From a virus: 41,069 nucleotides of DNA. Each line of letters starts with the position of its first letter. The first letter of the stretch is position 1. Below, piece by piece: positions 1,680 through 39,687 of the stretch. The notes below the pieces were generated by a model. That model saw only the letters and a list, made by a program, of their open reading frames with translations, ran no database searches and was not told the origin of the DNA. The stretch is taken from positions 1-41,069 of the IMG/VR virus record IMGVR_UViG_3300045988_157337. The stretch is one strand, 5' to 3'. A program made the position numbers and the translations under genes.

Positions 1680-3581
1680 CTATAGGGGCCTGATGAAGTC
1701 CAGAGAGAGCTTGTAGTCGTACACGGCCGTCGGCGTGGCCTGGCCGTTGTAGACGACGACCCCGATCTGGTCGCCGGCCGACAGGAGCACCTTGTCGGTG
1801 CGCTCGCCCGTCGTGTAATCGTCGGGCGCGCCGGAGAAGTACGTGTACGTGCCCCCCCAATCCGTCTTCGTGGGGAACGCCTGGCCGCCACCTGCTTCGA
1901 CGGTCCCGACGGCGAACGCGCCGTCCCACGACTTCGACCACACGCACACCCAGACGTTCACCCGGTAGATCCCGGGGCGCGCCACGGTGACACGGTCGTC
2001 GGCGATCGTGATCCCGCTGCCGGTCACCTTCTTCGGGATCCGCAGTGGCAGCCTGGTCCACGTCTTCGACGGCAGGCTCACCTGCGTCTTCCCCGACCAC
2101 GCCAGCAGGTCCGGCGGGTTCACGAGGTCGACCCAAGACGTGTCGACCCGGCCCTGGCCAGTGGCCCCCGGCGACGTGTGGTAAAGGCCCTCAGCCGTTA
2201 AGACAGTCTTCCCGTGCTGCGTGTCGTTGAACAGGATGTGGGCGGCGCCGGCGTCGTTCCTAGCGATCGTCAGCTCCGACGAAAAAGCCTGCTCCCAGGT
2301 GTCCTCGATGTCGAAGACGACGCGGTTCGCCCGGTTCGTCGGGGGAAACGTCATGTAGATGACGACGAGAAGATCCCCGTGGATCTGGACACGCTCCAGG
2401 CGAGGGGCTGTGCTCCCCTCCCAGTACGTCCACGACCCGAACTTCGGATAAATGCCCTCCGGAAGGCTGTTCCTCGGGTAGGTGACGACATGGGCCTCCA
2501 TGAGCGGGTACTCGGCGGAGACGCGGGCCCGCACACGCCGGTTCACCAGCGTGCTCACCGTGGCGTCCTCCGTGGCGGGCAGCCGCAGGCTGAGAGTGAC
2601 GAGCTGCTTCTTGTCGTGCGCGGGGAGGGTGATGGCGAAGCGCCCGTCGTCCGTCGCCGTGACCGGGCCCAGCTGGGCCTCCCACGCCGCGTCCGACCCA
2701 CCCCCCGGCTTCCAGTACTCGGGCTTCACCACGGTCCCGTAGGCGTTCGCCCCGGTCGTCCGCTCAGCGCGGGACAGGTGGAAGCGTCCGCCGTTGATGA
2801 CCAGGCCGTCCACCTGGCCACCCACGATCGTCGGCGACACGATGGTCTTCCCGGTGATCGTCCCGGCGATCAGCTCCCCGGGGATCACCGCGTTCTCCGC
2901 CGTGAGCCGGCCGACGACCGTGGCGTCGTCGAAGACGGCGAGGCGCGCCCACAGGTCCCGGGACGCGACAATGGTGTCCGCCGTGACTGTCCCTTGGGCG
3001 AGCTGACCGGGGCCGATCTGCACCGGCTCCCAGCCGCCGTTTTCCGCGAGCGCCCACCGCCCGACGGTCTTCCCCTCCACTACTTGCTCCCAGATTGTCC
3101 CTACCGGGTGTCCCTTTGCGTCGTCCCCCGTGGGTGCGCGGTCGGACACGCGGGCGCCGCCTCCTGCGGCCTTGATCTTCTCCTCCAGCTGCGCGCGGGC
3201 CTGGCCTATGTCGGCGCGGGCCTGCGTGAGGGCCTGGTCGGCGGCGCGGGTGGCGTCGAGGATACGGCGCCCGGTCTCCCCCACGGGGATCGGCGTGGCG
3301 CCGTCGGGTGCGGCGCGGGTGGGCGCGTGGATGGTGGTGGCGGCCCCGGTGGCGTCGCGGCTGATGCGGACGGGGGCCCCCATGTAGGTCACGCCGGCCT
3401 CGGTAGGGGCGACCACGGTGGCCGCGGTGTCGGGGGCGCCGTCCACACGGACCTCCACGATGCCGCGCGCCGCGTCGACGACGCCGACGACGGTGCCGGT
3501 CAGGGGCGCGGGCGCCGCCTGCGGGCCTAGTCGGCGCCCCTGGGGCGGCACATCGATCCACGGCGACAGGGCGTCAGGCAT
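1680..3581 (-). CDS. Minor tail / tail fibre (receptor-binding) protein
   Basis: 633 aa. Contains a coiled-coil segment (DQALTQARADIGQARAQLEEKIKAAGG) and a Gly/Thr/Val-rich beta-type C-terminus. Its start overlaps the upstream gene by 8 nt. Confidence 0.7.
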   Translation of the reverse strand: MPDALSPWIDVPPQGRRLGPQAAPAPLTGTVVGVVDAARGIVEVRVDGAPDTAATVVAPTEAGVTYMGAPVRISRDATGAATTIHAPTRAAPDGATPIPVGETGRRILDATRAADQALTQARADIGQARAQLEEKIKAAGGGARVSDRAPTGDDAKGHPVGTIWEQVVEGKTVGRWALAENGGWEPVQIGPGQLAQGTVTADTIVASRDLWARLAVFDDATVVGRLTAENAVIPGELIAGTITGKTIVSPTIVGGQVDGLVINGGRFHLSRAERTTGANAYGTVVKPEYWKPGGGSDAAWEAQLGPVTATDDGRFAITLPAHDKKQLVTLSLRLPATEDATVSTLVNRRVRARVSAEYPLMEAHVVTYPRNSLPEGIYPKFGSWTYWEGSTAPRLERVQIHGDLLVVIYMTFPPTNRANRVVFDIEDTWEQAFSSELTIARNDAGAAHILFNDTQHGKTVLTAEGLYHTSPGATGQGRVDTSWVDLVNPPDLLAWSGKTQVSLPSKTWTRLPLRIPKKVTGSGITIADDRVTVARPGIYRVNVWVCVWSKSWDGAFAVGTVEAGGGQAFPTKTDWGGTYTYFSGAPDDYTTGERTDKVLLSAGDQIGVVVYNGQATPTAVYDYKLSLDFIRPL

Positions 3582-5363: not shown

Positions 5364-8300
5364 ATCGCCTCTCTCACTACTCTCACGGCCTCGGTCCGGG
5401 CGGCGGCCCGCACCTGTTCTCCTGTCCACGGGTTCTCCACGATGGCCGTCACGTGGATCGTGGGGGCCCCTGGAGTGGACGTTGAGGCGTTCGCGCCGCC
5501 CGATGCGTACGCCACGGCGCCTGGCGGGATGTAGGCGCCGCCGAAGATGTCAGCGATGCGCGATAGGATCTGCTCGCTCCTCCGCCTCTTCCCGCGCGCT
5601 AGGGGGATGTACCCCTCGCCTCCGGTTTCGGGCTCGGCCCATACGCGGAATGCTCCGGCGGGGGCGATCTGCGCGACGTGGTCCTCCGTCTTCCGAGCAT
5701 TGAGCCCACCGGAGCTGTAGAAGGCGAGCACGGACCCGTCCTTCTGCGCCGACCCGGAGGGGCCCCCGCTCTGCGTGTAATTCCCACGGATGTTCACGTT
5801 GAACGTGATGCCGTCCCACTGCGCGCGCAGGTTGTTCATGATGCCGCTCACGTAGTCGTTGGCGCGGATGTTCACGTACGGGTGGTAGTCGCCGATAGCG
5901 GCCTTGATGTCCGCCAGCTTCGCGTTCGCCGCCTCGTTGTTCCCGTCGATCGTGATAGTCCCGGTTGACTGGTCGATCTCCCCCAGGGCCGCGACCATCT
6001 GCGCGACCGCTGGGTCCTTGTTAGCGTCGATCGTGATAGTCCCGTCCTGGTTCTGCACGTACCCGAGCGTTTCGAGGACGGTGCTTATCGCGCTGTCGTT
6101 CGTGGCGTTCACGGTGATCGTCCCGCCGGTCTGGGACTGGATGTAGGAGATGAAGGCGTCGACGTCGGCCTGCGCCGGCAGGGTGTTCGCCACCACCTGC
6201 GTGTCCACGTTCGCCGGTATCAGGTGCAGCTTGTCCGCGAGCGCGTTCGCCTCGTCAGATGACAGGCCCATGGCCTGTGCAACGGCGACGAAGTTGTCTC
6301 GGGTGGTTTGCAGGGCGCCCTGCATCTCCGCGATTGTCGCCCCGTTCTTCTGCATCGACTCCACGAGCTTCCATCCGGATCTCGCGAGGTCGTCGAGGGC
6401 CGCTTGGTTGTTCCGCCCGGCCTCGGTGGTGATGTCGAGCGTTTGTCCATTCTTCAGCACTGCGGCGTTCGCGTCGTCGATGGCGTCGTAGAGGTCGCGC
6501 CAGGATCCGCGTTCTCCGAGGACGATGTTCTGCAGGTCCTCCTGTGCCTTGATGAGCTTCTCCACTGCGTTGACCTGCTCGTCGACGGCGTTGGTGGCCT
6601 CCTGGGCTGCTCCTGCGAGCTTCCCCTGTGCGTCCGCGTTCTTGAGGCCGGCCTCGGCTGCAAGGTCGTTCTTCTGCTTCGCCTGGTCGAGGGCGCCGAT
6701 CTGCTCCTCTAGACCCTTCTTCGCATCCCCGTACGCTACGGCCAGATTGGTTTTCTCCACGCTCCTCGGCATGTCCTCGTAGGCCTTGAAGACCGCCTGG
6801 ACGCGGTCGAGGGCCTCTGACGATCCAGCGGCGGCGTCGACGAAGTCCTTGACGGAGCCTCCGAGTTCCTTGAAGCCTTTGATCGCGTTGCGGCCGGTTC
6901 CGTTGGAGGCGAATCCCATATCCATGTTCTGGGACAGCTTCTCGAAGACCTTGGTGCGGGTGGCCTCTGTAGCCGCTCCGGTTACGGTGTCGAGCGTGCC
7001 CCGGTACTCCTCCGCCAACTGTGTAGCCCTCTTCTGCGCAGCGGAATACGCTCCCAGGGCGGCGGTTAGGGCGGCGATTCCAGCGGTGGCGGCAAGCCCC
7101 CAGGGGCCGCCGAAGGCGCCGAGGAGCGCGGTCCCCACGCCGCGGGCCGCGCCTCCGATGCCTGTGAGGACTGGGGTGACGGCCTGGCCGAGAGCGCTGA
7201 TGCTCGACGAGCCAACGGTTCGGGCGGAGACGAAGGTGAGCCCGAAGTCGCGGATGCCCGCGCCGGTGGTCTTCAGGCCGGAGAGGATGTCGGAGAAACC
7301 GGTGGAGATGCGGGTGATGAAGGGGATGCTGCCGTTCAGGGAGGAGAGGGCCTGCCTCACCTCGACGATGGAGGAGAAGATCTTCATGCCCGCGCCTGCG
7401 GCGAGGGTGGCGGCGGAACCGAAGGCGAGGATGCCTAGTGCTCCTTGCTGCACGGGTCCGGGGAGGGCCGAGAATGCGTTGACGGCCTTCTCGGCGAATT
7501 GCACGATGGTGCGGAGAAAGTCGTTGCCGCCCGAACCGGATTTGATGAAGAGGGTCTCAAAGGATCCTCCGAGGCGCTCCACGTCCCCCGCGAGATTGTC
7601 CATCCTGGTCTGCGCTGTCTCCGACGCGTATCCCGCGTCGTTGACATTGTCGATCCAGCGCTGTATGCCCTCGGCGCCCTCCTTGTAGAGGACGTTCGCC
7701 GCGCGGATCGCGTCCTGGCCGAACATCTTCTTCATCTTCGCTTGACGGTCCTCGTCCGTCAGCTTCGACAGCTTGCTGTGCAGGAGGCCGGCGTACTGGG
7801 CTAGGCCGATGAACTTCCCTTGGGAGTCGTAGGCCTTGATCCCCAGCTCGTCCATGACGTTCGCAGCCGCCTTGGACTGCGGTGTCAGGTTAAGGAGCAT
7901 GGTCTTGAAGCTGGTGCCGGCGTCGGAGCCGAGGAGGCCGGCGGAGGCGAAGGCGGCGAGGGCGCCGGTCGTCTCCTCGATCGACAGTCCGGTCTGGGAG
8001 GCGACGAGGCCCGACTGCTTGAGCGCCATCCCGAGGTCCTGCACGTCCCCCATCGCCTTCCCCGCGCCAGCGGCGAGGAGGTCGGCGACGTGGGCCATGT
8101 CCGAGCCTTTGAGGCCGAACTGGACGAGGGCGACGGAGGCTATGCCCGCTGCCTCAGCGACACCCAGGCCTCCTGCGGCTGCCAGGTCGAGGGCGCCGGT
8201 GAGGCCTCCGTCGAGGATGTCGGCCGTCGACACGCCCGCCTTCGCGAGCTCCTCGATGGCCCCGGCGGCCTCGGACGCGCTGTACGCGGTGTCGGCGCCC

Positions 8301-21633: not shown

Positions 21634-22103
21634 GCTGCACCCCCGAGAGCGAGGGTGTTGACAGCCGCACTGTGCGCGGCCCTGTAGGCGAGGGTCTGGA
21701 CGACTCGTTGCGGGAGCGGTTCGGGCGTGCGTCCGACCTTGCATCTCACCTTCCATTCGACGTGCCCGTCGTCGTGGACCCAAACGAGGCCGGCTCCTAT
21801 TCCCGGGATCGGTGGGCAGTCGATGAGGCCAGCTGGGGTGGCGTACAAGAACCTATGGGAGACGAGACGCCAGGGTCGGACCTTCGCCCATGTCTCCCTG
21901 GCTGCATCCGCCCGGGAAACCTTGATCTCAATCGCAGTGCGCACGAGGTCGTCAATCATGAGGGCGTCGATACGTCTCATGATCGACTCGTGGTCGGCAT
22001 CGCTTTTCGTCCACTCGATCTCATCGTAGATGGTGAGCTCCGGAACGATCGCAGCGCCGGGCCATGTTGTGCGCAGGACTTCTAGGACTTCTACCGCTTT
22101 CAT
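21630..22103 (-). CDS. PD-(D/E)XK-type nuclease-like protein (MmcB-like)
   Basis: 157 aa from the ATG at 22103 (ATGA overlap). Contains a D...E.K arrangement (IDALMIDD...AIEIKVSRAD). Confidence 0.5.
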   Translation of the reverse strand: MKAVEVLEVLRTTWPGAAIVPELTIYDEIEWTKSDADHESIMRRIDALMIDDLVRTAIEIKVSRADAARETWAKVRPWRLVSHRFLYATPAGLIDCPPIPGIGAGLVWVHDDGHVEWKVRCKVGRTPEPLPQRVVQTLAYRAAHSAAVNTLALGGAA

Positions 22104-22366
22104 GCGTCCTCCTGCTGCTCGTACTGGTCGTGGTAGTCGTCGGGCGTGAGTACGTCGTACTCGCCGTGGGGGTCCTCGAGGAGGATCATCCCGGGGCGGG
22201 CGATGGTGAGGCCGTCGCGGGTGTGCACGTGGAGTGCGTCGCGGTTCATGGTGAGGTGGACGACGAGGTACTGGCGCGCGACCTCGGTGAGGTTGTCGTC
22301 GGTGAGGGGGATGGCCGTGTACTCGCTGGCGCGGGGACGGCACGGGATCGTGCGGAGGCCGCTCAT
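22100..22366 (-). CDS. Hypothetical protein
   Basis: 88 aa from the ATG at 22366 (ATGA overlap). Confidence 0.5.
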   Translation of the reverse strand: MSGLRTIPCRPRASEYTAIPLTDDNLTEVARQYLVVHLTMNRDALHVHTRDGLTIARPGMILLEDPHGEYDVLTPDDYHDQYEQQEDA

Positions 22367-34767: not shown

Positions 34768-35985
34768 TCACCCGGGCCCGAGGCGCAGGCGCTGCGCGAC
34801 CCGCTCCAACGCGGCCCGCGACATGTCCGTCGACACGTGCTGGTAGCCATGCGTCGTGACAATGTCCGAGTGCCCCATGATCGCCTTGATGACCTCCGGG
34901 TCCACGCCCGCGCCCAGGAGCAGCGTCGCCGTCGTGTGCCGTGCCTCGTGGAGGACGTAGGGCCGGCCGTCCGCGCGGGCGACCCCGGCGGCGGCCTGTA
35001 GGCGCTTCCAGGCCGCCCTGTCCGCCTCCGACGTGCGCGGCCGCTCCGGGCGCGCCAGGTCGTACCACACGAGGCCGGTCGGCGAGCGCGGGGCCGCGGC
35101 CAGATCCGCGAGCGCCGTCCGCATCCACGGCACCAGCGGGATCACCCGGTACCCGCTCCGCGTCTTCGGCCTGACCAGGTGGAGCGCGCCCCACACGCGG
35201 CGCGCCTCGTACCCGTCGGGCATGACGAAAGTCCCGGAGGCGCGGTCCAGGTAGCGGAGGGCCTGGAGCTGCCAGGACACGTCCACGGTCCCGGCCTCCA
35301 GGTCCACGCACTCCCACGTGAGCCCCAGGACCTCGCCCTGGCGCATGCCCTGGAGGAGTGCGGCGACCCACCGGGCGGCGTCGGGGGTGCCGGCCGCGTG
35401 GTCGAGGAGGCGGATGGCGTCGGCCTCGGGGATCGCGGCGCGGGTGGGCGCCGCGCGGCGCGGGGCCGGCGCGATGATCGCCCGCTGCGGCACCTGGTGC
35501 CCCTCGACGACGGCGGCGCGGAGGGCCTGCTGGAGGATCCGCTGGGCCGTCTGCGCGGTCGTCGTCGACCGCCCCGCGCTGGTGATCGCGGTCGTGAGGG
35601 CCCGCATGTCCTGGGGGCCGAGGCCGGCCAGCTTGCGGCGCCCCAGGACCGGGACGATCCACGTGCGCGACATCGACTCCTCGAGCGCCGAGGTCTTCGG
35701 CCTGACCGTGCGGCGCCGCCCTTCGAGCCACTCCCTCATCCACGACTCGACGGAGGCGCCGGCGCGCACGCCCTCGGGCGTCAGCCCCTCCAGCTTCACC
35801 TCCTTGCGGCGCGCCTGGAGCTTGTCCCACGCCCGTTGCTTGTCGCGGTCGCTGACCGTGATGCGGCGCCGGGTGCCCCGCGACGACCAGCCGGCCTCGA
35901 TGGTGCCGACCCACCGGCCGTCGGAGGCGCGCTGGTAGAAGCTGCCCTCGCCGTGGGGCAGCTCGTACTTCCGGGACCTCGGCAT
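34768..35985 (-). CDS. int: Tyrosine integrase
   Basis: 405 aa from the ATG at 35985, preceded by GAAAGGGGGG. C-terminal catalytic signature LHEARHTTATLLL...IMGHSDIVTTHGYQH. Confidence 0.9.
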   Translation of the reverse strand: MPRSRKYELPHGEGSFYQRASDGRWVGTIEAGWSSRGTRRRITVSDRDKQRAWDKLQARRKEVKLEGLTPEGVRAGASVESWMREWLEGRRRTVRPKTSALEESMSRTWIVPVLGRRKLAGLGPQDMRALTTAITSAGRSTTTAQTAQRILQQALRAAVVEGHQVPQRAIIAPAPRRAAPTRAAIPEADAIRLLDHAAGTPDAARWVAALLQGMRQGEVLGLTWECVDLEAGTVDVSWQLQALRYLDRASGTFVMPDGYEARRVWGALHLVRPKTRSGYRVIPLVPWMRTALADLAAAPRSPTGLVWYDLARPERPRTSEADRAAWKRLQAAAGVARADGRPYVLHEARHTTATLLLGAGVDPEVIKAIMGHSDIVTTHGYQHVSTDMSRAALERVAQRLRLGPG

Positions 35986-36002
35986 CCCACCCCCCTTTCT
36001 CC

Positions 36003-36249
36003 TGTAGCCAATCGTGTAGCCATCACTATGGTATCCTAGTGCGCCGCCGTGGTGTGCGGACTGGCGGGATTCCGCCGTTTCCGCCGCGCCTGCGCGTCTG
36101 GTGCGCTGGTGTAGAACCAGTGCTGCCAGGGGTGGGCGGGCCCGGTGGGGGGTGGCTGATGCTTCCTGTGGGGACAAGGGAAACCGCCTGCGTGCACCAA
36201 GCCGGAACCAGGGCCCACATGGGGGCGTTTTCAGCCATTCTTGTAGCCA
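36003..36249. repeat. TGTAGCCA direct repeats (36003, 36015, 36242): candidate integrase arm-type sites / attP region
   Basis: Three exact 8-mers lie in the roughly 600-bp non-coding region upstream of int. Confidence 0.35.
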
Positions 36250-36369
36250 CTCGTACCCCGTAGCAGGTTTCCCGCGTGATTGCGCGGGTGCGGCGTGGTC
36301 GGCGGCGCGCTCGCGGGGTTGGTGATGACGCCGACGCCCCATACCCTCATGTATGACTCGATATACATT

Positions 36370-36416
36370 CCGCCTCCATTGTATCCCTAGTGACACTAGG
36401 GATACAATGGAGGCGG
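36370..36416. promoter_or_regulatory. 47-bp perfect palindrome containing two fully overlapping, oppositely oriented promoter-like elements (TTGTAT-N18-TACAAT on each strand)
   Basis: ccgcctccattgtatccctagtg a cactagggatacaatggaggcgg, with 23-nt arms that are exact reverse complements. On the plus strand the -35 is at 36379..36384 and the -10 at 36403..36408. Confidence 0.7.
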
Positions 36417-36565
36417 AGGGCGCCGTGCTCTCCGAGGCGCAGGCCGCCGCCTCGTCGTCGACGACTACGCATCCCGCGACCTGAGCGCCCGCGACGCTCT
36501 TCCCGAGTGGGAGCGCGAGCTCCTCGGCAGGGAGGAGGCGGCCGAGGTCGCATGACAAGCGCCAC

Positions 36566-36608
36566 TGGGCCCCACCCCCTAGCTCCAGTGGCCGGGGGGT
36601 GGGGCCCA
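36566..36608 (+). other. 14-bp perfect stem-loop immediately upstream of the 36614 gene
   Basis: tgggccccaccccc (36566..36579) pairs with gggggtggggccca (36595..36608), leaving a 15-nt loop. Confidence 0.6.
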
Positions 36609-36613
36609 CAACC

Positions 36614-37066
36614 ATGCGCAAAGGAGAAGATGTGATAACGATCATGTGCCCGGGGCGGATGACGGGCGCGGAGGTGACGGCGGCGCGTGAGGCCCTGGGC
36701 CTCACCACCGCGGAGTTCGCCGCCCTCGCGGGCGTCCACCCGCAGACGCCGCACAGGTGGGAGGCCGGCCGCGAGCCCGCGCCTGTGCGGATCGGGGGGC
36801 TGCTCGCGGATCTCGCCCGCGAGCACGACGACCTGGTCGACCTCCTGGTTGAGCGCACCGACGACGTCCGCGCCGACTACGCGGCGGTGGTGGTGCCCCG
36901 CACCAAGGAGGAGTACGCGGCACTCTGCCCGGACGCGAGTCGGCCCCTGCACTGGCTGCGCCTCGCCGCCTCCCGCGCCGCCAGCCAGGCCCCGCGCCTG
37001 CGCATAGTGCGGGACGCGGACGAGGCCGCGCGCCTGGGAGCGCAGGTGATCCACCCATCCATATGA
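36614..37066 (+). CDS. XRE-family HTH protein
   Basis: Candidate starts are ATG 36614, GTG 36632 (5 nt after AAGGAG) and ATG 36644. HTH LGLTTAEFAALAGVHPQTPHRWEAGRE. Confidence 0.65.
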   Translation: MRKGEDVITIMCPGRMTGAEVTAAREALGLTTAEFAALAGVHPQTPHRWEAGREPAPVRIGGLLADLAREHDDLVDLLVERTDDVRADYAAVVVPRTKEEYAALCPDASRPLHWLRLAASRAASQAPRLRIVRDADEAARLGAQVIHPSI

Positions 37067-37176: not shown

Positions 37177-37854
37177 ATGAGCACCATCGAAATCACCATC
37201 ACCGAGACCAGCCGCGGCAGGATCGCCGTCACCACCCCCTACAGCCCCGAGTTCGTGGCGTCTGCGAAGCGCCTGGGCGGCCGCTGGGCCCCCAAGAGCC
37301 ACGCCTGGACGTTCGACCTCCGCGACCGCGCCCGGGTCGAGGACATCCTCACCCAGTGCTTCGGGTGGGTGGCTGCACCCTCGGGCGAGCTCGCCACCGT
37401 CCGAGTCACCATCGACGACGGGGCCGGGAACGCCCCCGAGGTGCGATTCGCCGGCCGACCCATCTGTTGGAGGAGGGGCCGCGACGAGTCCGTGCGCCTC
37501 GCTGACAACGTCGTCATCGTCGCCGGCCACTTCCCCGGCTCCGGCGGATCCATGCGCCGGCCCCTGGTCATTTCTGCTCCCTCCGACGCGGAGGTGACCC
37601 TCGAGGTCAGGGACGTCCCGGTCGAGGGCCTGGCAGCTGAGGACTCGTCCCGGTGGGACTCGCTCCGGTGGGAGCGGGTCGACGCGGGCGGGGCCGCGCA
37701 GCGCGACGCCCTGGTCGCCGAGCGCGAGCGCCTCCAGTCCCGCCTGTCCGAGATCGACGCGATCCTCGCCGCCGCCGACTGCCCCCCCGGGCCCCGCCCC
37801 CAGCCTGGGGGCGGGGCCCCACCTCACAGGAGAGGAGACAGAAATGCACACTGA
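37177..37854 (+). CDS. Hypothetical protein with N-terminal AK.LGGRW...W motif (DUF5710-like by recollection)
   Basis: 225 aa. ATG preceded by ATAGGAGGG. N-terminus VTTPYSPEFVASAKRLGGRWAPKSHAWTF. Confidence 0.6.
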   Translation: MSTIEITITETSRGRIAVTTPYSPEFVASAKRLGGRWAPKSHAWTFDLRDRARVEDILTQCFGWVAAPSGELATVRVTIDDGAGNAPEVRFAGRPICWRRGRDESVRLADNVVIVAGHFPGSGGSMRRPLVISAPSDAEVTLEVRDVPVEGLAAEDSSRWDSLRWERVDAGGAAQRDALVAERERLQSRLSEIDAILAAADCPPGPRPQPGGGAPPHRRGDRNAH

Positions 37855-38767
37855 TATCACGGTCGAGCTGACCAATATGGTGGGCGACGGGGGCGCCGTC
37901 GTGGTTCCCGCCACCGAGGTCGAGGACGTCCTAGACCAGTGGTTCCCACCCGACGACCGGGCCGCGGATTCCCAGGCCGAGGACGCGGTCTCCACGGTCG
38001 TCCGGTGGGCGCGCGCGCACGACCCCGCCCGCGACGGCGGCGGCATCGTCGAGGCCCTGGCCTACCTCGGCATCAACGCCGAGATGCACACTCCCCCGGC
38101 CCCGCGCCGGCCCGACTACCGGCGGATCCTCACCCGCCGCCAGGTCGAGCGCCTCACCCGCGACCGCCTGCAGGCGGCCCTGGCCGCCACGGGCACCATC
38201 ATCCCCGGCGCGGACACCGAGGTAGTGCGGTTGGCCTACATCCAGGACATCCAGGGCCTGGACGCCATGCGCGCCGCCCTCGCGGCCATGGAGGCCGCCA
38301 CCACCGGGTACGACCCCCGACACAGGGAGCTCGTGCGCCGCTTCACCCTGGCCCACGAGGAGGCGCACGAGCGGTGGCTGGCCCACCGCCAGCAGGTCCT
38401 CGACGGCCGGATCCTGCCCGGCCGCGTCATCGAGGCCATCCGCACCGGCGCGGGCATGAGCCCCGCCGAGTGGGCCGACGCCCTCAGCGTCAGCGAGGGC
38501 ACCGCCCGGGACTGGGAGTCAGGGCGCCGCACGCCCCCCGCCGGGGCCTGCACCGACATGTGGGCAATCTGGCTGCGGTGGGTGAAGACCCAGGCGGCCG
38601 CCCTCGGCACCCCAGCCGCCGTCATCAACCAGCATTGGCGGGAGCCCGTGGCCGTGCTCCCCGCCGACACCCCCCTGCACGATCTCCGGGCCCTGGGGAT
38701 AATGCTCCAGGGCCGACGCTTCACCCTAGACCCAGGCCCGGAGATCCAGCACCCCACCCCCGCGTAA
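37844..38767 (+). CDS. Hypothetical protein with a C-terminal XRE-like HTH
   Basis: 307 aa. ATG preceded by AGGAGAGGAG. HTH GMSPAEWADALSVSEGTARDWESGRRTP. Confidence 0.65.
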   Translation: MHTDITVELTNMVGDGGAVVVPATEVEDVLDQWFPPDDRAADSQAEDAVSTVVRWARAHDPARDGGGIVEALAYLGINAEMHTPPAPRRPDYRRILTRRQVERLTRDRLQAALAATGTIIPGADTEVVRLAYIQDIQGLDAMRAALAAMEAATTGYDPRHRELVRRFTLAHEEAHERWLAHRQQVLDGRILPGRVIEAIRTGAGMSPAEWADALSVSEGTARDWESGRRTPPAGACTDMWAIWLRWVKTQAAALGTPAAVINQHWREPVAVLPADTPLHDLRALGIMLQGRRFTLDPGPEIQHPTPA

Positions 38768-38781
38768 CGGGCACAAGAATC

Positions 38782-38816
38782 GGGGCCCCGCCACACGGTT
38801 CGTGTGGCGGGGCCCC
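38782..38816. terminator. 15-bp perfect stem-loop; candidate bidirectional terminator between the plus-strand module and the minus-strand late operon/array
   Basis: ggggccccgccacac (38782..38796) pairs with gtgtggcggggcccc (38802..38816), leaving a 5-nt loop. Confidence 0.7.
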
Positions 38817-39045
38817 ACCCGCTCTCGCAGGCAATATTCAGTTCCAGCCCTCAGCGCAACCTAGTTAGCGGGTTCATCCCCACGTGAGCGGGGAACACGT
38901 GCACTGGTGCAACACTAACGGTTCATCCCCGCTCGCGCGGGGAACAGTTGGCTAGTTGCAACCCCAAAGGATCATCCCCACTTGCGTGGGGAAAAATTTC
39001 AACTGTGCAATTTCAAGGGCTCACCCCCGCTCTCGCGGGGACACC
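38809..39045 (-). CRISPR. Cas-less type I-E-like CRISPR repeat array: four 29-nt repeats, one degenerate terminal repeat, three 20-nt spacers and one 32-nt spacer
   Basis: Repeats on the plus strand are at 38870..38898, 38919..38947, 38968..38996 and 39017..39045, with a degenerate copy at 38809..38837. The minus-strand form is GTGTTCCCCGC-N4-GCGGGGATGAACCG-like, with a 6-bp stem, 4-nt loop and 8-nt handle. Confidence 0.8.
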
Positions 39046-39066
39046 TGGAGTGTACCACACTCAGGG

Positions 39067-39687
39067 TCAGTGCAGGTAGCGTTTCATCTCGTCAATGTAC
39101 GCCGATGCCTGGCGCTTGGAGAGTGCGCTCACGTCGATGGTGCGGAGCGCCTGCTCTTTAGCGCGGGCTTCGCGGGCTTGGCGAGCGACCGACCTACCCC
39201 ACACTCCACGCATCGCGCGCGTATACGCTAGATCAATGCGCGCTTCCGCTTGCGCGTTCGCTTTGTCCACAGCGTCCTGCTTGGCCCAGTACGCTGCGCC
39301 CTCGGGGGTTTTTATAGCGACCTTCCGGCGCATCCCACGCAGGCTCTCCGGCATCGGGATATCAGGCTTCAGGCTTCCGTCCTTCGTGAGTTTGTCCCTC
39401 ATTCTCTGTGCGGCTTCGTCTCCGGCCCTATCTCGCTCACGGTCTGCCTTCTGCTCGTACACGGACAGGTTGATGCGGTTGCTCTTGTCCTCCGCTTCGG
39501 ACGCTGTCCACGCGCGGGGCAGCGGATGCTGGTTGGCGGCCTCCTGCATTTTCTTCATGTACTCGACCTGCCGGGGTGTGGCTGCGCCGCCCTCGGCAGG
39601 ACCCAGGCCAAGATCTTCGGGGGTCGGCGCAGCGCTGCCTCCCCCGCCACCCCCGCCGCTGTGGCTGCTACCGCCTCGTCCACCCAT
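39067..39687 (-). CDS. Hypothetical protein with Gly-rich N-terminus and charged helical body
   Basis: 206 aa with the ATG verified. Lies immediately upstream (in transcription order) of the repeat array. Confidence 0.6.
   Translation of the reverse strand: MGGRGGSSHSGGGGGGGSAAPTPEDLGLGPAEGGAATPRQVEYMKKMQEAANQHPLPRAWTASEAEDKSNRINLSVYEQKADRERDRAGDEAAQRMRDKLTKDGSLKPDIPMPESLRGMRRKVAIKTPEGAAYWAKQDAVDKANAQAEARIDLAYTRAMRGVWGRSVARQAREARAKEQALRTIDVSALSKRQASAYIDEMKRYLH

What the first reader, a model, noticed from the sequence alone, without database searches (positions are those of the whole stretch)
38870..39045. Stem covariation and a wobble-only pair indicate RNA-level selection and minus-strand expression of the repeats
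In the minus-strand reading, stem positions 10 and 17 of the repeat covary. They are G-C in units at 38919 and 39017, A-T in the unit at 38968 (CCCCAC/GTGGGG), and G-T in the unit at 38870 (CCCCGC/GTGGGG). The G-T combination is a legal G.U pair only in minus-strand RNA; it would be an A.C mismatch in plus-strand RNA. The hairpin is therefore conserved while the primary sequence drifts, mainly at the 5' end, the loop and the 8-nt handle. The handles are ATGAACCC, ATGAACCG, ATGATCCT and GTGAGCCC. Minus orientation also places the array 21 nt after the stop of gene 39067..39687, so it could be co-transcribed with the late/lysis genes and ended by the 38782..38816 hairpin. The differing handles could address more than one I-E repeat variant.
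Basis: seen in the sequence. Interest (0 to 1): 0.7.

Follow-up and report, generated by a model that had tools for sequence, protein, structure and literature searches.

The report
Phage mini-array mimicking host CRISPR RNAs
A prophage of an oral Actinomyces-like bacterium carries, with no cas genes of its own, a small array of type I-E CRISPR repeats separated by shortened 20-base guides; it is most likely copied into RNA from the minus strand to hijack or jam the host's CRISPR defence, a trick first described in 2023-2026.

Summary
Read on the minus strand, four 29-nt units (38870-39045, period 49) are type I-E CRISPR repeats. Stem pair 10:17 is G-C, G-C, A-U and G.U. The minus-strand reading is supported by five independent lines of evidence, though not by expression data.

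That repeat runs into the terminator and has its own minus-sense-only U.G pair.

Unit R3 is 29/29 identical to genuine I-E repeats that sit next to cas3-cse1...cas2 operons. The phage itself has no cas genes.

Forty-five viral contigs show the same architecture:
- 20-21-nt spacers that resemble each other at their 5' ends;
- a last repeat without a handle;
- a terminator after the array.

Across 109 distinct units, pair 10:17 is never unpaired (GC 73, AU 33, GU 3).

In two diverged relatives the stems and loops are almost invariant, while handle positions 5 and 8 and the distal halves of the spacers drift.

This matches the recently described viral crRNA-like anti-CRISPR arrays ("Cracr arrays") and is akin to Racr decoys. 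It is a new member of a known kind. The guides' target was not found, so guide and pure decoy cannot be told apart.

The parts
39067..39687 (-). Last protein gene before the array: a 206-aa orphan, all-helical protein. It closes the late/lysis gene string (endolysin, holin, 164 aa, DUF4417, this gene).
   Evidence: ORF. No Pfam or PHROG family. Only 2 homologues among 5.8 billion proteins. AF2 model with pLDDT 82.6 has no fold match in PDB or BFVD. Gene order.
39046..39066 (-). 21-nt leader CCCTGAGTGTGGTACACTCCA. It can form a 9-bp hairpin and contains an extended -10-like TGGTACACT about 7 nt before R1.
   Evidence: Sequence. Hairpin appears in the MFE fold. Conserved in L049 (identical) and in L052, which has 2 changes: C->T gives TATACT and keeps a G.U pair, and the other falls in a bulge. 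Promoter function is an inference; the strict sigma-70 scan found none.
39017..39045 (-). Repeat R1: GGTGT CCCCGC GAGA GCGGGG GTGAGCCC (G-C at 10:17; handle GTGAGCCC).
   Evidence: Invariant in the three orthologous arrays. Hairpin -16.8 kcal/mol.
38997..39016 (-). Pseudo-spacer S1, 20 nt: TTGAAATTGCACAGTTGAAA.
   Evidence: The TT-N4-TTGCA core is shared with S2 and S3 and is found nowhere else in the window.
38968..38996 (-). Repeat R2: TTTTT CCCCAC GCAA GTGGGG ATGATCCT (A-U at 10:17).
38948..38967 (-). Pseudo-spacer S2, 20 nt: TTGGGGTTGCAACTAGCCAA.
   Evidence: It differs from its orthologues only at position 12.
38919..38947 (-). Repeat R3: CTGTT CCCCGC GCGA GCGGGG ATGAACCG, the most canonical unit.
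   Evidence: 29/29 identical to the repeat of the cas-associated I-E array in L082. Its 23-nt core is identical to 74 metagenomic I-E arrays.
38899..38918 (-). Pseudo-spacer S3, 20 nt: TTAGTGTTGCACCAGTGCAC.
38870..38898 (-). Repeat R4: GTGTT CCCCGC TCAC GTGGGG ATGAACCC (G.U at 10:17; intact handle).
   Evidence: Orthologues in L049 and L052 have G-C here. Fold -12.4 kcal/mol in minus sense against -9.7 with a broken stem in plus sense.
38837..38869 (-). Spacer S4, 33 nt (canonical I-E length): GCTAACTAGGTTGCGCTGAGGGCTGGAACTGAA.
   Evidence: Ten of 33 columns vary among orthologues, mostly at the 5' end. No match in the window, IMG/VR or the fetched loci.
38809..38836 (-). Degenerate terminal repeat psiR5: TATTG CCTGC GAGA GCGGG TGGGGCCCC. 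The hairpin is kept, with a U.G pair that exists only in minus sense. The handle is lost, and the 3' end overlaps the terminator stem.
   Evidence: Direct-repeat family D2 (78% to R1). The stem is CCCGC/GCGGG in L052. The hairpin forms only in minus sense.
38782..38816 (.). Perfect 16-bp GC-rich hairpin between convergent genes. It serves as terminator for the array on the minus strand (tail AUUCUUGUG) and probably also for the + strand gene 37844-38767.
   Evidence: (I1). Conserved in L046, L049 and L052.

Best explanation
The locus is a cas-less, phage-borne type I-E CRISPR-like mini-array. Its layout is leader, R1, S1, R2, S2, R3, S3, R4, S4, psiR5, terminator.

**Proposed mechanism.**
1. 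The array is transcribed from the minus strand. Transcription either reads through from the lysis/late genes or starts at a -10-like element in the 21-nt leader.
2. The host's Cas6e cuts each repeat hairpin at its 3' base. This gives crRNA-like RNAs with an 8-nt 5' handle, a 20-nt pseudo-spacer and a 3' hairpin.
3. These RNAs load host Cascade. Because 20 nt = 32 - 2x6, the complexes would carry two fewer Cas7 subunits.
4. The RNAs compete with the host's own crRNAs. Most likely they also steer the captured Cascade, as a non-cutting repressor, onto a set of related host sites that share PAM-TT-N4-TTGCA.
5. By analogy with the described type I-E 'Cracr arrays', those sites would be variant cas-operon promoters in different host strains. 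The net effect is anti-CRISPR protection of the (pro)phage.

**Shown here:**
- repeat identity with genuine I-E repeats;
- the array anatomy;
- polarity signals;
- purifying selection on hairpins and on the 5' part of the spacers;
- recurrence of the architecture in 45 other viral contigs;
- absence of cas genes in the phage;
- an oral Actinomycetaceae host.

**Inferred:** transcription, Cas6e processing, Cascade loading, the repressor role and the identity of the target.
For: **Homology to genuine I-E repeats.**
- R3 equals a bona fide I-E repeat beside a complete cas operon.
- BLAST of the region hits E. coli and Salmonella I-E arrays.
- tblastn with Salmonella Cas proteins finds no I-E cas gene in the window.

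**Polarity.**
- The last repeat has lost its handle in 37/41 arrays, and in this window as psiR5.
- Terminator-like hairpins follow 29/41 arrays in sense against 4/41 in antisense (for this window).
- Wobble pairs versus A.C mismatches run 6:1.
- Both orthologous stem changes preserve pairing only in minus sense.

**Selection.** Variable columns among window, L049 and L052:
- stems 1/48, loops 0/16, 5' flank 1/20;
- handle 5/32;
- spacer positions 1-11, 3/33; spacer positions 12-20, 8/27.

On 109 units the stem pairs in 99.8% of cells, and none of 500 shuffles reaches the covariation score.

**Signs of guide function.**
- Of 67 distinct viral spacers, 52 are 20-21 nt and 5 are 32-33 nt.
- Within an array, spacers share 5.9/10 bases at positions 1-10, against 2.9/10 between arrays. 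At positions 11-19 they share only 3.65/9 against 2.43/9.
- All 9 distinct short spacers of this phage lineage keep T1, T2 and T7-T8-G9-C10-A11.
- That motif occurs nowhere else in the phage or in the host flank.

**Precedents.**
- Viral I-E Cracr arrays have 21-24-nt pseudo-spacers that silence P_casA. Arrays hold variants that target different strains. Viral pseudo-spacers are mostly 17-21 nt (bioRxiv 10.1101/2024.10.29.618823).
- Host CreR targets P_casA next to an AAG PAM. I found such a host element with a 20-21-nt pseudo-spacer in L121. It has an AAG-flanked promoter target mismatched only at flipped-out position 6, and the system's repeat has the same 23-nt core as R3.
- One Cas7 binds 6 nt, and shortened spacers give Cascade with fewer Cas7 (PMC5159557).

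**Accessory nature.** Relatives whose DUF4417 protein is 60% identical have only a terminator at this position.
Against: - No target was found for S1-S4. The searches covered the window, the prophage's 6-kb host flank, 74 metagenomic I-E loci including four with cas3/cse1 upstream regions, IMG/VR and 185,579 GTDB species genomes for CreR-like elements with a TTGCA spacer. No I-E locus of the real host could be fetched, so the key Cracr criterion is untested.
- There are no RNA data.
- Spacer similarity could be a residue of tandem duplication rather than of selection for related targets.
- E. coli Cascade with shortened spacers can still prime or interfere, so 'non-cutting' is an assumption.
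- The G.U pairs may weaken Cas6e recognition.
Confidence: 0.6

Rival explanations
1. Pure decoy, working like a Racr but multiplied. The repeats soak up Cas6e and Cascade subunits into dead-end complexes. The 20-nt inserts are only spacers of convenient length and guide nothing.
For: - Racrs, including two I-E ones, inhibit CRISPR by repeat mimicry alone (PMC10651486).
- No target was found for any pseudo-spacer.
- Hairpins are the most conserved part.
Against: - Racrs are defined as solitary units, and the authors' finder discards arrays.
- A decoy does not explain the tight 20-21-nt length in unrelated phages.
- It does not explain the 5'-biased similarity of spacers within arrays.
- It does not explain the invariant TT-N4-TTGCA core, nor the threefold lower divergence of spacer positions 1-11 compared with 12-20.
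- It does not explain why every internal repeat keeps the 5' handle while the last one loses it.
Confidence: 0.2
2. An offensive or regulatory mini-array aimed at something other than cas promoters. Possible targets are competing phages or prophages (superinfection exclusion, as in archaeal virus mini-arrays), or promoters of other host defence or toxin genes.
For: [quoted passage not shown]
- Host crlRNAs can control other defence systems and CreT toxins.
- S4 has full canonical length (33 nt), as do the two spacers of the Corynebacterium phage SamW mini-array at the same genomic position.
Against: - No match to any of 2.9 million IMG/VR contigs for the S2 or S4 cores beyond chance hits.
- No similar phage in INPHARED.
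- Twenty-nt guides are shorter than those used for interference.
Confidence: 0.12
3. An inert remnant. A piece of host CRISPR array was captured by the phage and then decayed, with spacers shortened by deletions, and it has no present function.
For: - Only the narrow lineage window/L049/L052 has it.
- The last repeat is degenerate.
Against: - Three lineages whose flanking protein is only about 80% identical keep every hairpin: 1 pair-preserving change in 48 stem columns and 0 in 16 loop columns.
- Unit number changes by whole 49-nt modules (L049 has an extra unit).
- Identical 49-50-nt architecture recurs in 45 unrelated viral contigs.
Confidence: 0.05
4. A DNA-level or plus-strand element. 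This could be a cluster of palindromic protein-binding sites or terminators, or an RNA made from the plus strand.
For: - The palindromic stems fold on both strands, with whole-region z-scores of -7.7 on each.
- The region lies between convergent genes.
Against: - In plus sense the array lies downstream of the + gene's terminator.
- R4 and psiR5 would have A.C mismatches in plus sense.
- The asymmetric handle, its loss in the last repeat and the downstream terminators all fit minus sense only.
- R3 is identical to genuine I-E repeats.
Confidence: 0.03

Closest known systems
Viral type I-E 'Cracr arrays' (crRNA-like anti-CRISPR RNAs; Liu et al., bioRxiv 10.1101/2024.10.29.618823, version of July 2026)
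   Same: - Located in a prophage, outside any CRISPR-cas locus.
- Built of I-E repeat-like units that flank shortened pseudo-spacers (here 20 nt; 21-24 nt in the tested Salmonella array; viral pseudo-spacers mostly 17-21 nt).
- Several related pseudo-spacers are stacked in one array.
- The terminal repeat is degenerate and a terminator follows the array.
- The Actinomycetota phylum is among the predicted hosts.
   Different: - The defining match of the pseudo-spacer to a host CreR or cas promoter could not be tested here.
[quoted passage not shown] It has 3 short and one 33-nt spacer in the window, and 4 short and one 33-nt spacer in L049.
- That study searched by BLAST with known CreR/CreA queries, so an array whose host CreR is unknown may have been missed.
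Racr, RNA anti-CRISPRs (Camara-Wilpert et al., Nature 2023, PMC10651486)
   Same: - Phage-encoded mimicry of host CRISPR repeats.
- Relies on host Cas proteins.
- I-E examples (RacrIE1 and RacrIE2) were validated.
- The hairpin is conserved.
   Different: - Racrs are solitary repeat units, and repeats within 100 bp of each other were set aside as arrays by the authors' finder.
- Here five repeats stand at a fixed 49-nt period, with conserved inserts that look like guides.
Host CreR/CreA crRNA-like regulators (bioRxiv 10.1101/2023.03.10.532045)
   Same: - The psiR-psiS-psiR layout and a shortened pseudo-spacer.
- The 5' handle is conserved in the first repeat and the hairpin in the second.
- An example was found here in L121, beside a cse1 promoter with an AAG PAM.
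   Different: - CreR sits inside the host cas locus, is single, and serves the host's own autoregulation.
- The present element is viral, multiplexed and far from any cas gene.
Canonical type I-E CRISPR arrays
   Same: - A 29-nt repeat, with R3 identical to natural repeats.
- The CCCCGC-N4-GCGGGG hairpin and the AUGAACCG handle.
- One 33-nt spacer (S4).
   Different: - No cas genes and no usual leader.
- The period is 49 nt instead of 61 nt.
- Spacers are related to one another rather than unique.
- Repeats differ from each other at 5-10 positions.
Viral mini-CRISPR arrays for inter-virus conflict (reviewed in PMC11656645)
   Same: A cas-less array in a virus that uses the host's Cas machinery.
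   Different: Those arrays carry one or two full-length spacers that match related viruses. Here three of four spacers are truncated and none matches a known virus.

Membership tests
Type I-E CRISPR repeat | 28-29-nt repeat with a 6-7-bp GC hairpin (CCCCGC-N4-GCGGGG) followed by an 8-nt handle (AUGAACCG-like) | tested here: met
   R3 is 29/29 identical to the repeat of L082, which lies downstream of cas3...cas2. Its 23-nt core equals that of 74 arrays. All four units fold into the hairpin.
Type I-E CRISPR array (canonical) | Unique 32-33-nt spacers (61-nt period) with adjacent cas genes | tested here: not met
   The period is 49 nt with 20-nt inter-related spacers, and only S4 is 33 nt. No I-E cas homologue is found in the 41-kb window.
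Cracr array (viral crRNA-like anti-CRISPR) | Repeat-like / spacer-like / repeat-like units on a virus or plasmid, outside CRISPR-cas loci | tested here: met
   The window is a temperate phage. It is integrated in an Actinomycetaceae contig in L052. No cas genes are present.
Cracr array (viral crRNA-like anti-CRISPR) | Pseudo-spacer shorter than canonical (about 17-24 nt) | tested here: met
   S1-S3 are 20 nt. Fifty-two of 67 spacers in comparable viral arrays are 20-21 nt.
Cracr array (viral crRNA-like anti-CRISPR) | At least 9 PAM-proximal bases of the pseudo-spacer match a host CreR/CreA pseudo-spacer and its PAM-flanked target in a cas or creT promoter | tested here: inconclusive
   No match in 74 metagenomic I-E loci, the host flank, the GTDB pattern scan or IMG/VR. 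None of these is the real host's cas locus, which could not be fetched.
Cracr array (viral crRNA-like anti-CRISPR) | Cas-dependent maturation and anti-CRISPR activity | not testable with these tools
   Needs small-RNA sequencing and phage assays.
Racr (RNA anti-CRISPR) | Solitary repeat unit (no second repeat within about 100 bp) | tested here: not met
   Five repeats at a 49-nt period. The SRUFinder rule is quoted.
Racr (RNA anti-CRISPR) | Mimics the repeat of the host's own CRISPR-Cas system | tested here: inconclusive
   It mimics natural I-E repeats in general. The I-E repeat of the oral Actinomycetaceae host is not in hand.
Viral mini-CRISPR array (inter-virus competition) | Full-length spacers that match related viruses | tested here: not met
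   S1-S3 are truncated. No extended match of the S2 or S4 cores in IMG/VR, and no similar phage in INPHARED.

The most novel reading that the evidence does not exclude
The array is a multiplexed guide cassette with 4-5 guides. Its 20-nt guides all keep the PAM-proximal core TT-N4-TTGCA. Under this reading they do not merely mirror one cas promoter. They send shortened host Cascades (four Cas7) to a promoter-like element shared by several host or rival-prophage loci, so that one prophage RNA operon silences a whole set of defence or competitor genes. A full-length 33-nt guide (S4) is added for a separate, possibly cleaving, task.
Probability: 0.12. Interest if true: 0.65.

Novelty: new member of a known kind. 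Interest (0 to 1): 0.4.

Why it matters
- It adds an example from the human oral microbiome (Actinomycetaceae) to a class of RNA anti-CRISPRs that has been tested so far in Proteobacteria. With 4-5 guides it is larger than any I-E example described so far.
- The survey made here gives simple recognition rules for such elements that do not depend on knowing the host's regulator. The rules rest on 45 viral contigs:
  - a 49-50-nt period;
  - 20-21-nt guides that are alike at their 5' ends;
  - a handle-less last repeat;
  - a terminator after the array, often just after the lysis genes.
- If the guides do silence host cas promoters, oral prophages may shape which Actinomyces strains keep working CRISPR immunity.
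- The 20-nt guides would be natural templates for compact, non-cutting Cascade repressors.

Tried and rejected
- **Rfam.** Nothing at gathering thresholds. At E<=10 only noise appears, with one CRISPR-DR28 hit on the plus strand at E 8.7. Not informative.
- **Whole-array folding.** It cannot choose a strand: minus -153.5 and plus -145 kcal/mol, both with z about -7.7.
- **Self-targeting.** The best non-self match of any spacer in the window is 14/20. The core motif occurs only in the array.
- **Target search in 74 metagenomic I-E loci.** Only chance-level hits. The one that looked promising (L082 4478, 14/20 to S2) lies inside the cas3 C-terminal coding region with no PAM, so it was rejected.
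- **GTDB genome scan** for handle + N7 + TTGCA + repeat. It returned a Lentilactobacillus parafarraginis mini-array and one chance hit, and no Actinomyces.
- **IMG/VR scans with the S2 and S4 cores**. The 19 and 38 hits do not extend and come from contigs of unrelated composition.
- **Positive-control scan** for viral copies of the L121 CreR pseudo-spacer. None of the 80 hits is flanked by repeats.
- **Search for relatives of the 206-aa neighbour in IMG/VR and INPHARED.** None found.
- **Structure of the 206-aa protein as a possible Acr.** The model is confident but matches no known fold.
- **Exact look-ups of host-flank proteins.** Two of three were not on record.
- **The real host's I-E locus.** I could not obtain it.
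Full report
**1. The observation**

The region 38870-39045 holds four tandem units with a 49-nt period (TRF score 139). Read on the minus strand, each unit is 5 nt + CCCCRC + a 4-nt loop + GYGGGG + an 8-nt tail:
- R1, 39045-39017: GGTGT CCCCGC GAGA GCGGGG GTGAGCCC
- R2, 38996-38968: TTTTT CCCCAC GCAA GTGGGG ATGATCCT
- R3, 38947-38919: CTGTT CCCCGC GCGA GCGGGG ATGAACCG
- R4, 38898-38870: GTGTT CCCCGC TCAC GTGGGG ATGAACCC

The stop codon of gene 39067..39687 lies 21 nt upstream of R1. The perfect 16-bp hairpin at 38782-38816 scores as a terminator on the minus strand. Every factual statement in the finding is correct.

**2.

- After R4 comes a 33-nt stretch (38869-38837). It is followed by a fifth, degenerate repeat (38836-38809; TATTG CCTGC GAGA GCGGG TGGGGCCCC). 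This repeat is 78% like R1 (family D2).
- The fifth repeat keeps a hairpin but not the handle, and it runs into the terminator stem.
- Its stem contains a U.G pair that exists only in minus sense. In the relative L052 the same stem is CCCGC/GCGGG.
- The three 20-nt inserts are not unrelated spacers. They read TTGAAATTGCACAGTTGAAA, TTGGGGTTGCAACTAGCCAA and TTAGTGTTGCACCAGTGCAC, and all share TT-N4-TTGCA.

**3. Identity of the repeats**

- BLAST of the region against phage records hits only E. coli and Salmonella type I-E arrays and a group of Corynebacterium phages.
- A metagenome scan was run for the 23-nt core of R3 at canonical spacing. It returned 74 arrays with a 61-nt period.
- Many of these arrays lie directly downstream of, and co-oriented with, cas3-cse1-cse2-cas7-cas5-cas6e-cas1-cas2.
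- The repeat of L082 is identical to R3 over all 29 nt.
- The window has no I-E cas homologue.
- The units are thus type I-E CRISPR repeats in a cas-less setting. The sense strand of natural arrays corresponds to the window's minus strand.

**4. Where the window comes from**

- It is a temperate siphovirus-like actinophage of 69% G+C. Its terminase is at most 51% identical to those of cultured phages.
- Exact or near-exact copies occur in human oral metagenomes (L046-L048).
- Diverged relatives are L049 (neighbouring protein 79-81% identical) and L052-L054.
- L052 is an integrated prophage. Homology with the window ends at window position ~36104, next to the integrase.
- The flanking host DNA has 71.6% G+C. 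It encodes an S8 peptidase whose named relatives are from Actinomyces.
- The gene order is tail genes, endolysin, holin, 164 aa, DUF4417, an orphan 206-aa protein, then the array and the terminator. Convergent HTH genes, the integrase and att follow.
- Relatives whose DUF4417 protein is 60% identical have only a terminator where the array would be. The array is therefore an accessory insertion.

**5.

Three orthologous arrays can be aligned unit by unit: the window, L049 (which has one extra unit) and L052. The variable columns are:
- stems 1/48;
- loops 0/16;
- 5' flanks 1/20;
- handles 5/32, all at handle positions 5 and 8;
- spacer positions 1-11, 3/33;
- spacer positions 12-20, 8/27.

The single stem change is the C->T that creates the window's G.U in R4.

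On a wider scale, a pattern scan of IMG/VR found 45 contigs with I-E-like repeats at 49-50-nt spacing. From these and the window family I collected 109 distinct units. I required only the outer CCCC/GGGG, which left the two inner pairs free.
- Pair 10:17 is GC 73, AU 33, GU 3, and never unpaired.
- Pair 11:16 is CG 99, UG 3, AU 2, GC 2, UA 2, and unpaired once.
- None of 500 shuffles reaches the observed covariation, and slid structures pair in only 44-61% of cells.

The covariation is real. It is, however, the known covariation of the I-E repeat hairpin. Between orthologues I saw wobble transitions only, not double changes. The G-C/A-U difference between R1/R3 and R2 therefore probably reflects descent from, or mimicry of, different natural repeat variants.

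**6. Strand**

Folding energy does not discriminate: minus -153.5 and plus -145 kcal/mol, both with z about -7.7. The following do:
- (a) identity with the sense strand of cas-linked arrays (section 3);
- (b) internal repeats keep the RTGANCC handle (69/75) while the last repeat has lost it (37/41 arrays, and psiR5 here), as expected if each guide needs an upstream handle and a downstream hairpin;
- (c) hairpins with T-rich tails follow 29/41 arrays in sense against 4/41 in antisense;
- (d) G.U versus A.C runs 6:1 in sense;
- (e) R4 and psiR5 form their hairpins only in minus sense.

Transcription itself remains inferred. The 21-nt leader is almost invariant in all three lineages. It can be read either as a small hairpin or as an extended -10 (TGGTACACT; TGGTATACT in L052). 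The array may therefore have its own promoter as well as read-through from the late genes. The strict promoter scan found nothing.

**7. What it most likely does**

Two kinds of phage RNA that exploit repeats are known.
- Racrs are solitary repeat units that act as decoys (PMC10651486).
- 'Cracr arrays' are viral repeat/pseudo-spacer units. Their shortened guides copy the host's own Cas-regulating RNA (CreR) and turn Cascade into a repressor of the cas promoter (bioRxiv 10.1101/2024.10.29.618823). [quoted passage not shown] Co-arrayed guides target variants of the same system in related strains.

The present locus fits the second description in every feature I could test, and so do the other viral arrays.
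- Of 67 distinct spacers, 52 are 20-21 nt. This equals the canonical 32-33 nt minus two 6-nt Cas7 steps (PMC5159557).
- Spacers of one array resemble each other mainly in their first ten bases: 5.9/10 against 2.9/10 between arrays. For positions 11-19 the figures are 3.65/9 against 2.43/9.
- In this lineage, positions 1, 2 and 7-11 are invariant in all nine distinct short spacers.

As a picture of the host-side partner, L121 has a divergent psiR-psiS-psiR element between cas3 and cse1. Its repeat shares the 23-nt core of R3. The 20-21-nt pseudo-spacer (GTGGGTTTCATTGCTCA...) matches an AAG-flanked site between the -35 and -10 of the cse1 promoter, with its only mismatch at the flipped-out position 6.

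**8. What remains open**

- I could not obtain an I-E locus from the real host, and no target for S1-S4 turned up anywhere I could search.
- A control scan for viral copies of the L121 pseudo-spacer was also negative.
- The guide model is therefore preferred on indirect grounds only. A pure multi-copy decoy, or guides aimed at other host or rival-phage promoters, remain possible.
- The 33-nt S4 has canonical length and might act differently. Its 5' third is the variable part.
A/G at handle position 1 and variation at positions 5 and 8 are common across the viral arrays.

**9. Verdict**

- The interpretation (RNA-level constraint, minus-sense polarity, a role towards host I-E systems) is supported.
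- The element is a new, comparatively large member of a recently described kind, not a new kind.
- Interest is moderate.

Noticed in passing
L048 5904-6208 (ENA ERZ27262752 k119_123394): In this otherwise identical copy of the phage, the degenerate fifth repeat is replaced by a psiR5/R1 hybrid (CCTGCGAGAGCGGGGGTGAGCCC). S1 and R2 follow again up to the contig end. This is either a real head-to-tail duplication of the whole array, by recombination between psiR5 and R1, or an assembly artefact.
   Followed up: partly
L133 1140-1300, minus strand (Corynebacterium phage SamW MH727560.1, about 22,050-22,250); the same hit occurs in Troy, StAB, Dina, Lederberg, Bran and Stiles: These cultured C. xerosis phages carry an unannotated three-repeat I-E mini-array with repeats ...TCGGGGATGAGCCG, ...GCGGGGATGAGCCG and ...GCGGGGCACGCGCC. 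It has two 33-nt spacers that both start TTTG, followed by a terminator. It lies just after the lysin/membrane-protein cassette, the same genomic position as in the window.
   Followed up: partly
L121 reverse complement 6600-6740 (metagenome contig Ga0116141_10002976): A host CreR-like mini-array lies between cas3 and cse1, on the opposite strand. Its layout is psiR1 ...GGCGGGGATGGACC, a 20-21-nt pseudo-spacer GTGGGTTTCATTGCTCATAA, then psiR2 GTGTTCCCCGCGCCCGCGGGGATGCTC. An AAG-flanked 17-nt target lies between a TTGCTG -35 and a TAGACT -10 of the cse1 promoter, with one mismatch at position 6.
   Followed up: partly
L050 683-735, minus strand (Lentilactobacillus parafarraginis DSM 18390): A chromosomal two-repeat element with a 21-nt insert: GTGTTCCCCATGCATATTGGGGGTGATCC | TGATGAGTTTGCATTTGACGA | GTGTTCCCCACACATGTGGGGGTGAAAT. 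It looks like a host crRNA-like regulator. The neighbouring cas genes were not in the fetched stretch.
   Followed up: no
window 39046-39066 (minus strand): The 21-nt leader between the stop codon and R1 is nearly invariant in three lineages. It can form a 9-bp hairpin and also reads as an extended -10 (TGGTACACT; TGGTATACT in L052). Its C->T change keeps a G.U pair in minus sense.
   Followed up: partly
window 39067-39687 (minus strand): The gene just upstream of the array encodes a 206-aa orphan protein with a Gly-rich N-terminus and then all helices. It has only 2 homologues in 5.8 billion proteins, no Pfam or PHROG family, and a confident AF2 model (pLDDT 82.6) that matches no fold in PDB or BFVD. 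It is a candidate partner (for example an Acr), but there is no evidence for this.
   Followed up: yes
window ~36040-36104 and L052 ~15037: Homology between the free phage genome (window) and the integrated prophage (L052) ends at window position 36104, next to the tyrosine integrase in the ORF 34768-36858. This marks the probable attP/att junction. The array lies about 2.7 kb from it, the usual place for lysogenic-conversion cargo.
   Followed up: partly
window 36599-37066 (+) and 37844-38767 (+): Two HTH proteins converge on the array. The first gives a weak, sub-threshold hit to the Aca2/YdiL family (E 0.0034). It is probably the phage's immunity or Cro-like regulator, but an anti-CRISPR-associated regulator cannot be excluded.
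   Followed up: no
L025, L032, L043 (IMG/VR): In these unrelated viral contigs the short-spacer I-E array also lies about 0.5-1.5 kb downstream of an endolysin homologue on the same strand. The end of the lysis cassette may be a preferred site for such arrays.
   Followed up: partly
L044 (IMGVR_UViG_2791355248_000001), minus strand ~2825-3061: A five-repeat array has units that look homologous to the window's: CTGTT CCCCAC GCGA GTGGGG ATGACCCA against R3, which is a G-C to A-U double change with the same flank and loop, and GTGTT CCCCGC TCAC GCGGGG ATGACCCC against R4. Its spacer family is different (TTGAAAAATTGGGATTACGTG...) and resembles that of about 15 gut-metagenome contigs (ATAAAAGATTTGGGATTCGTA). 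It ends with a 33-nt spacer, as the window's array does.
   Followed up: partly
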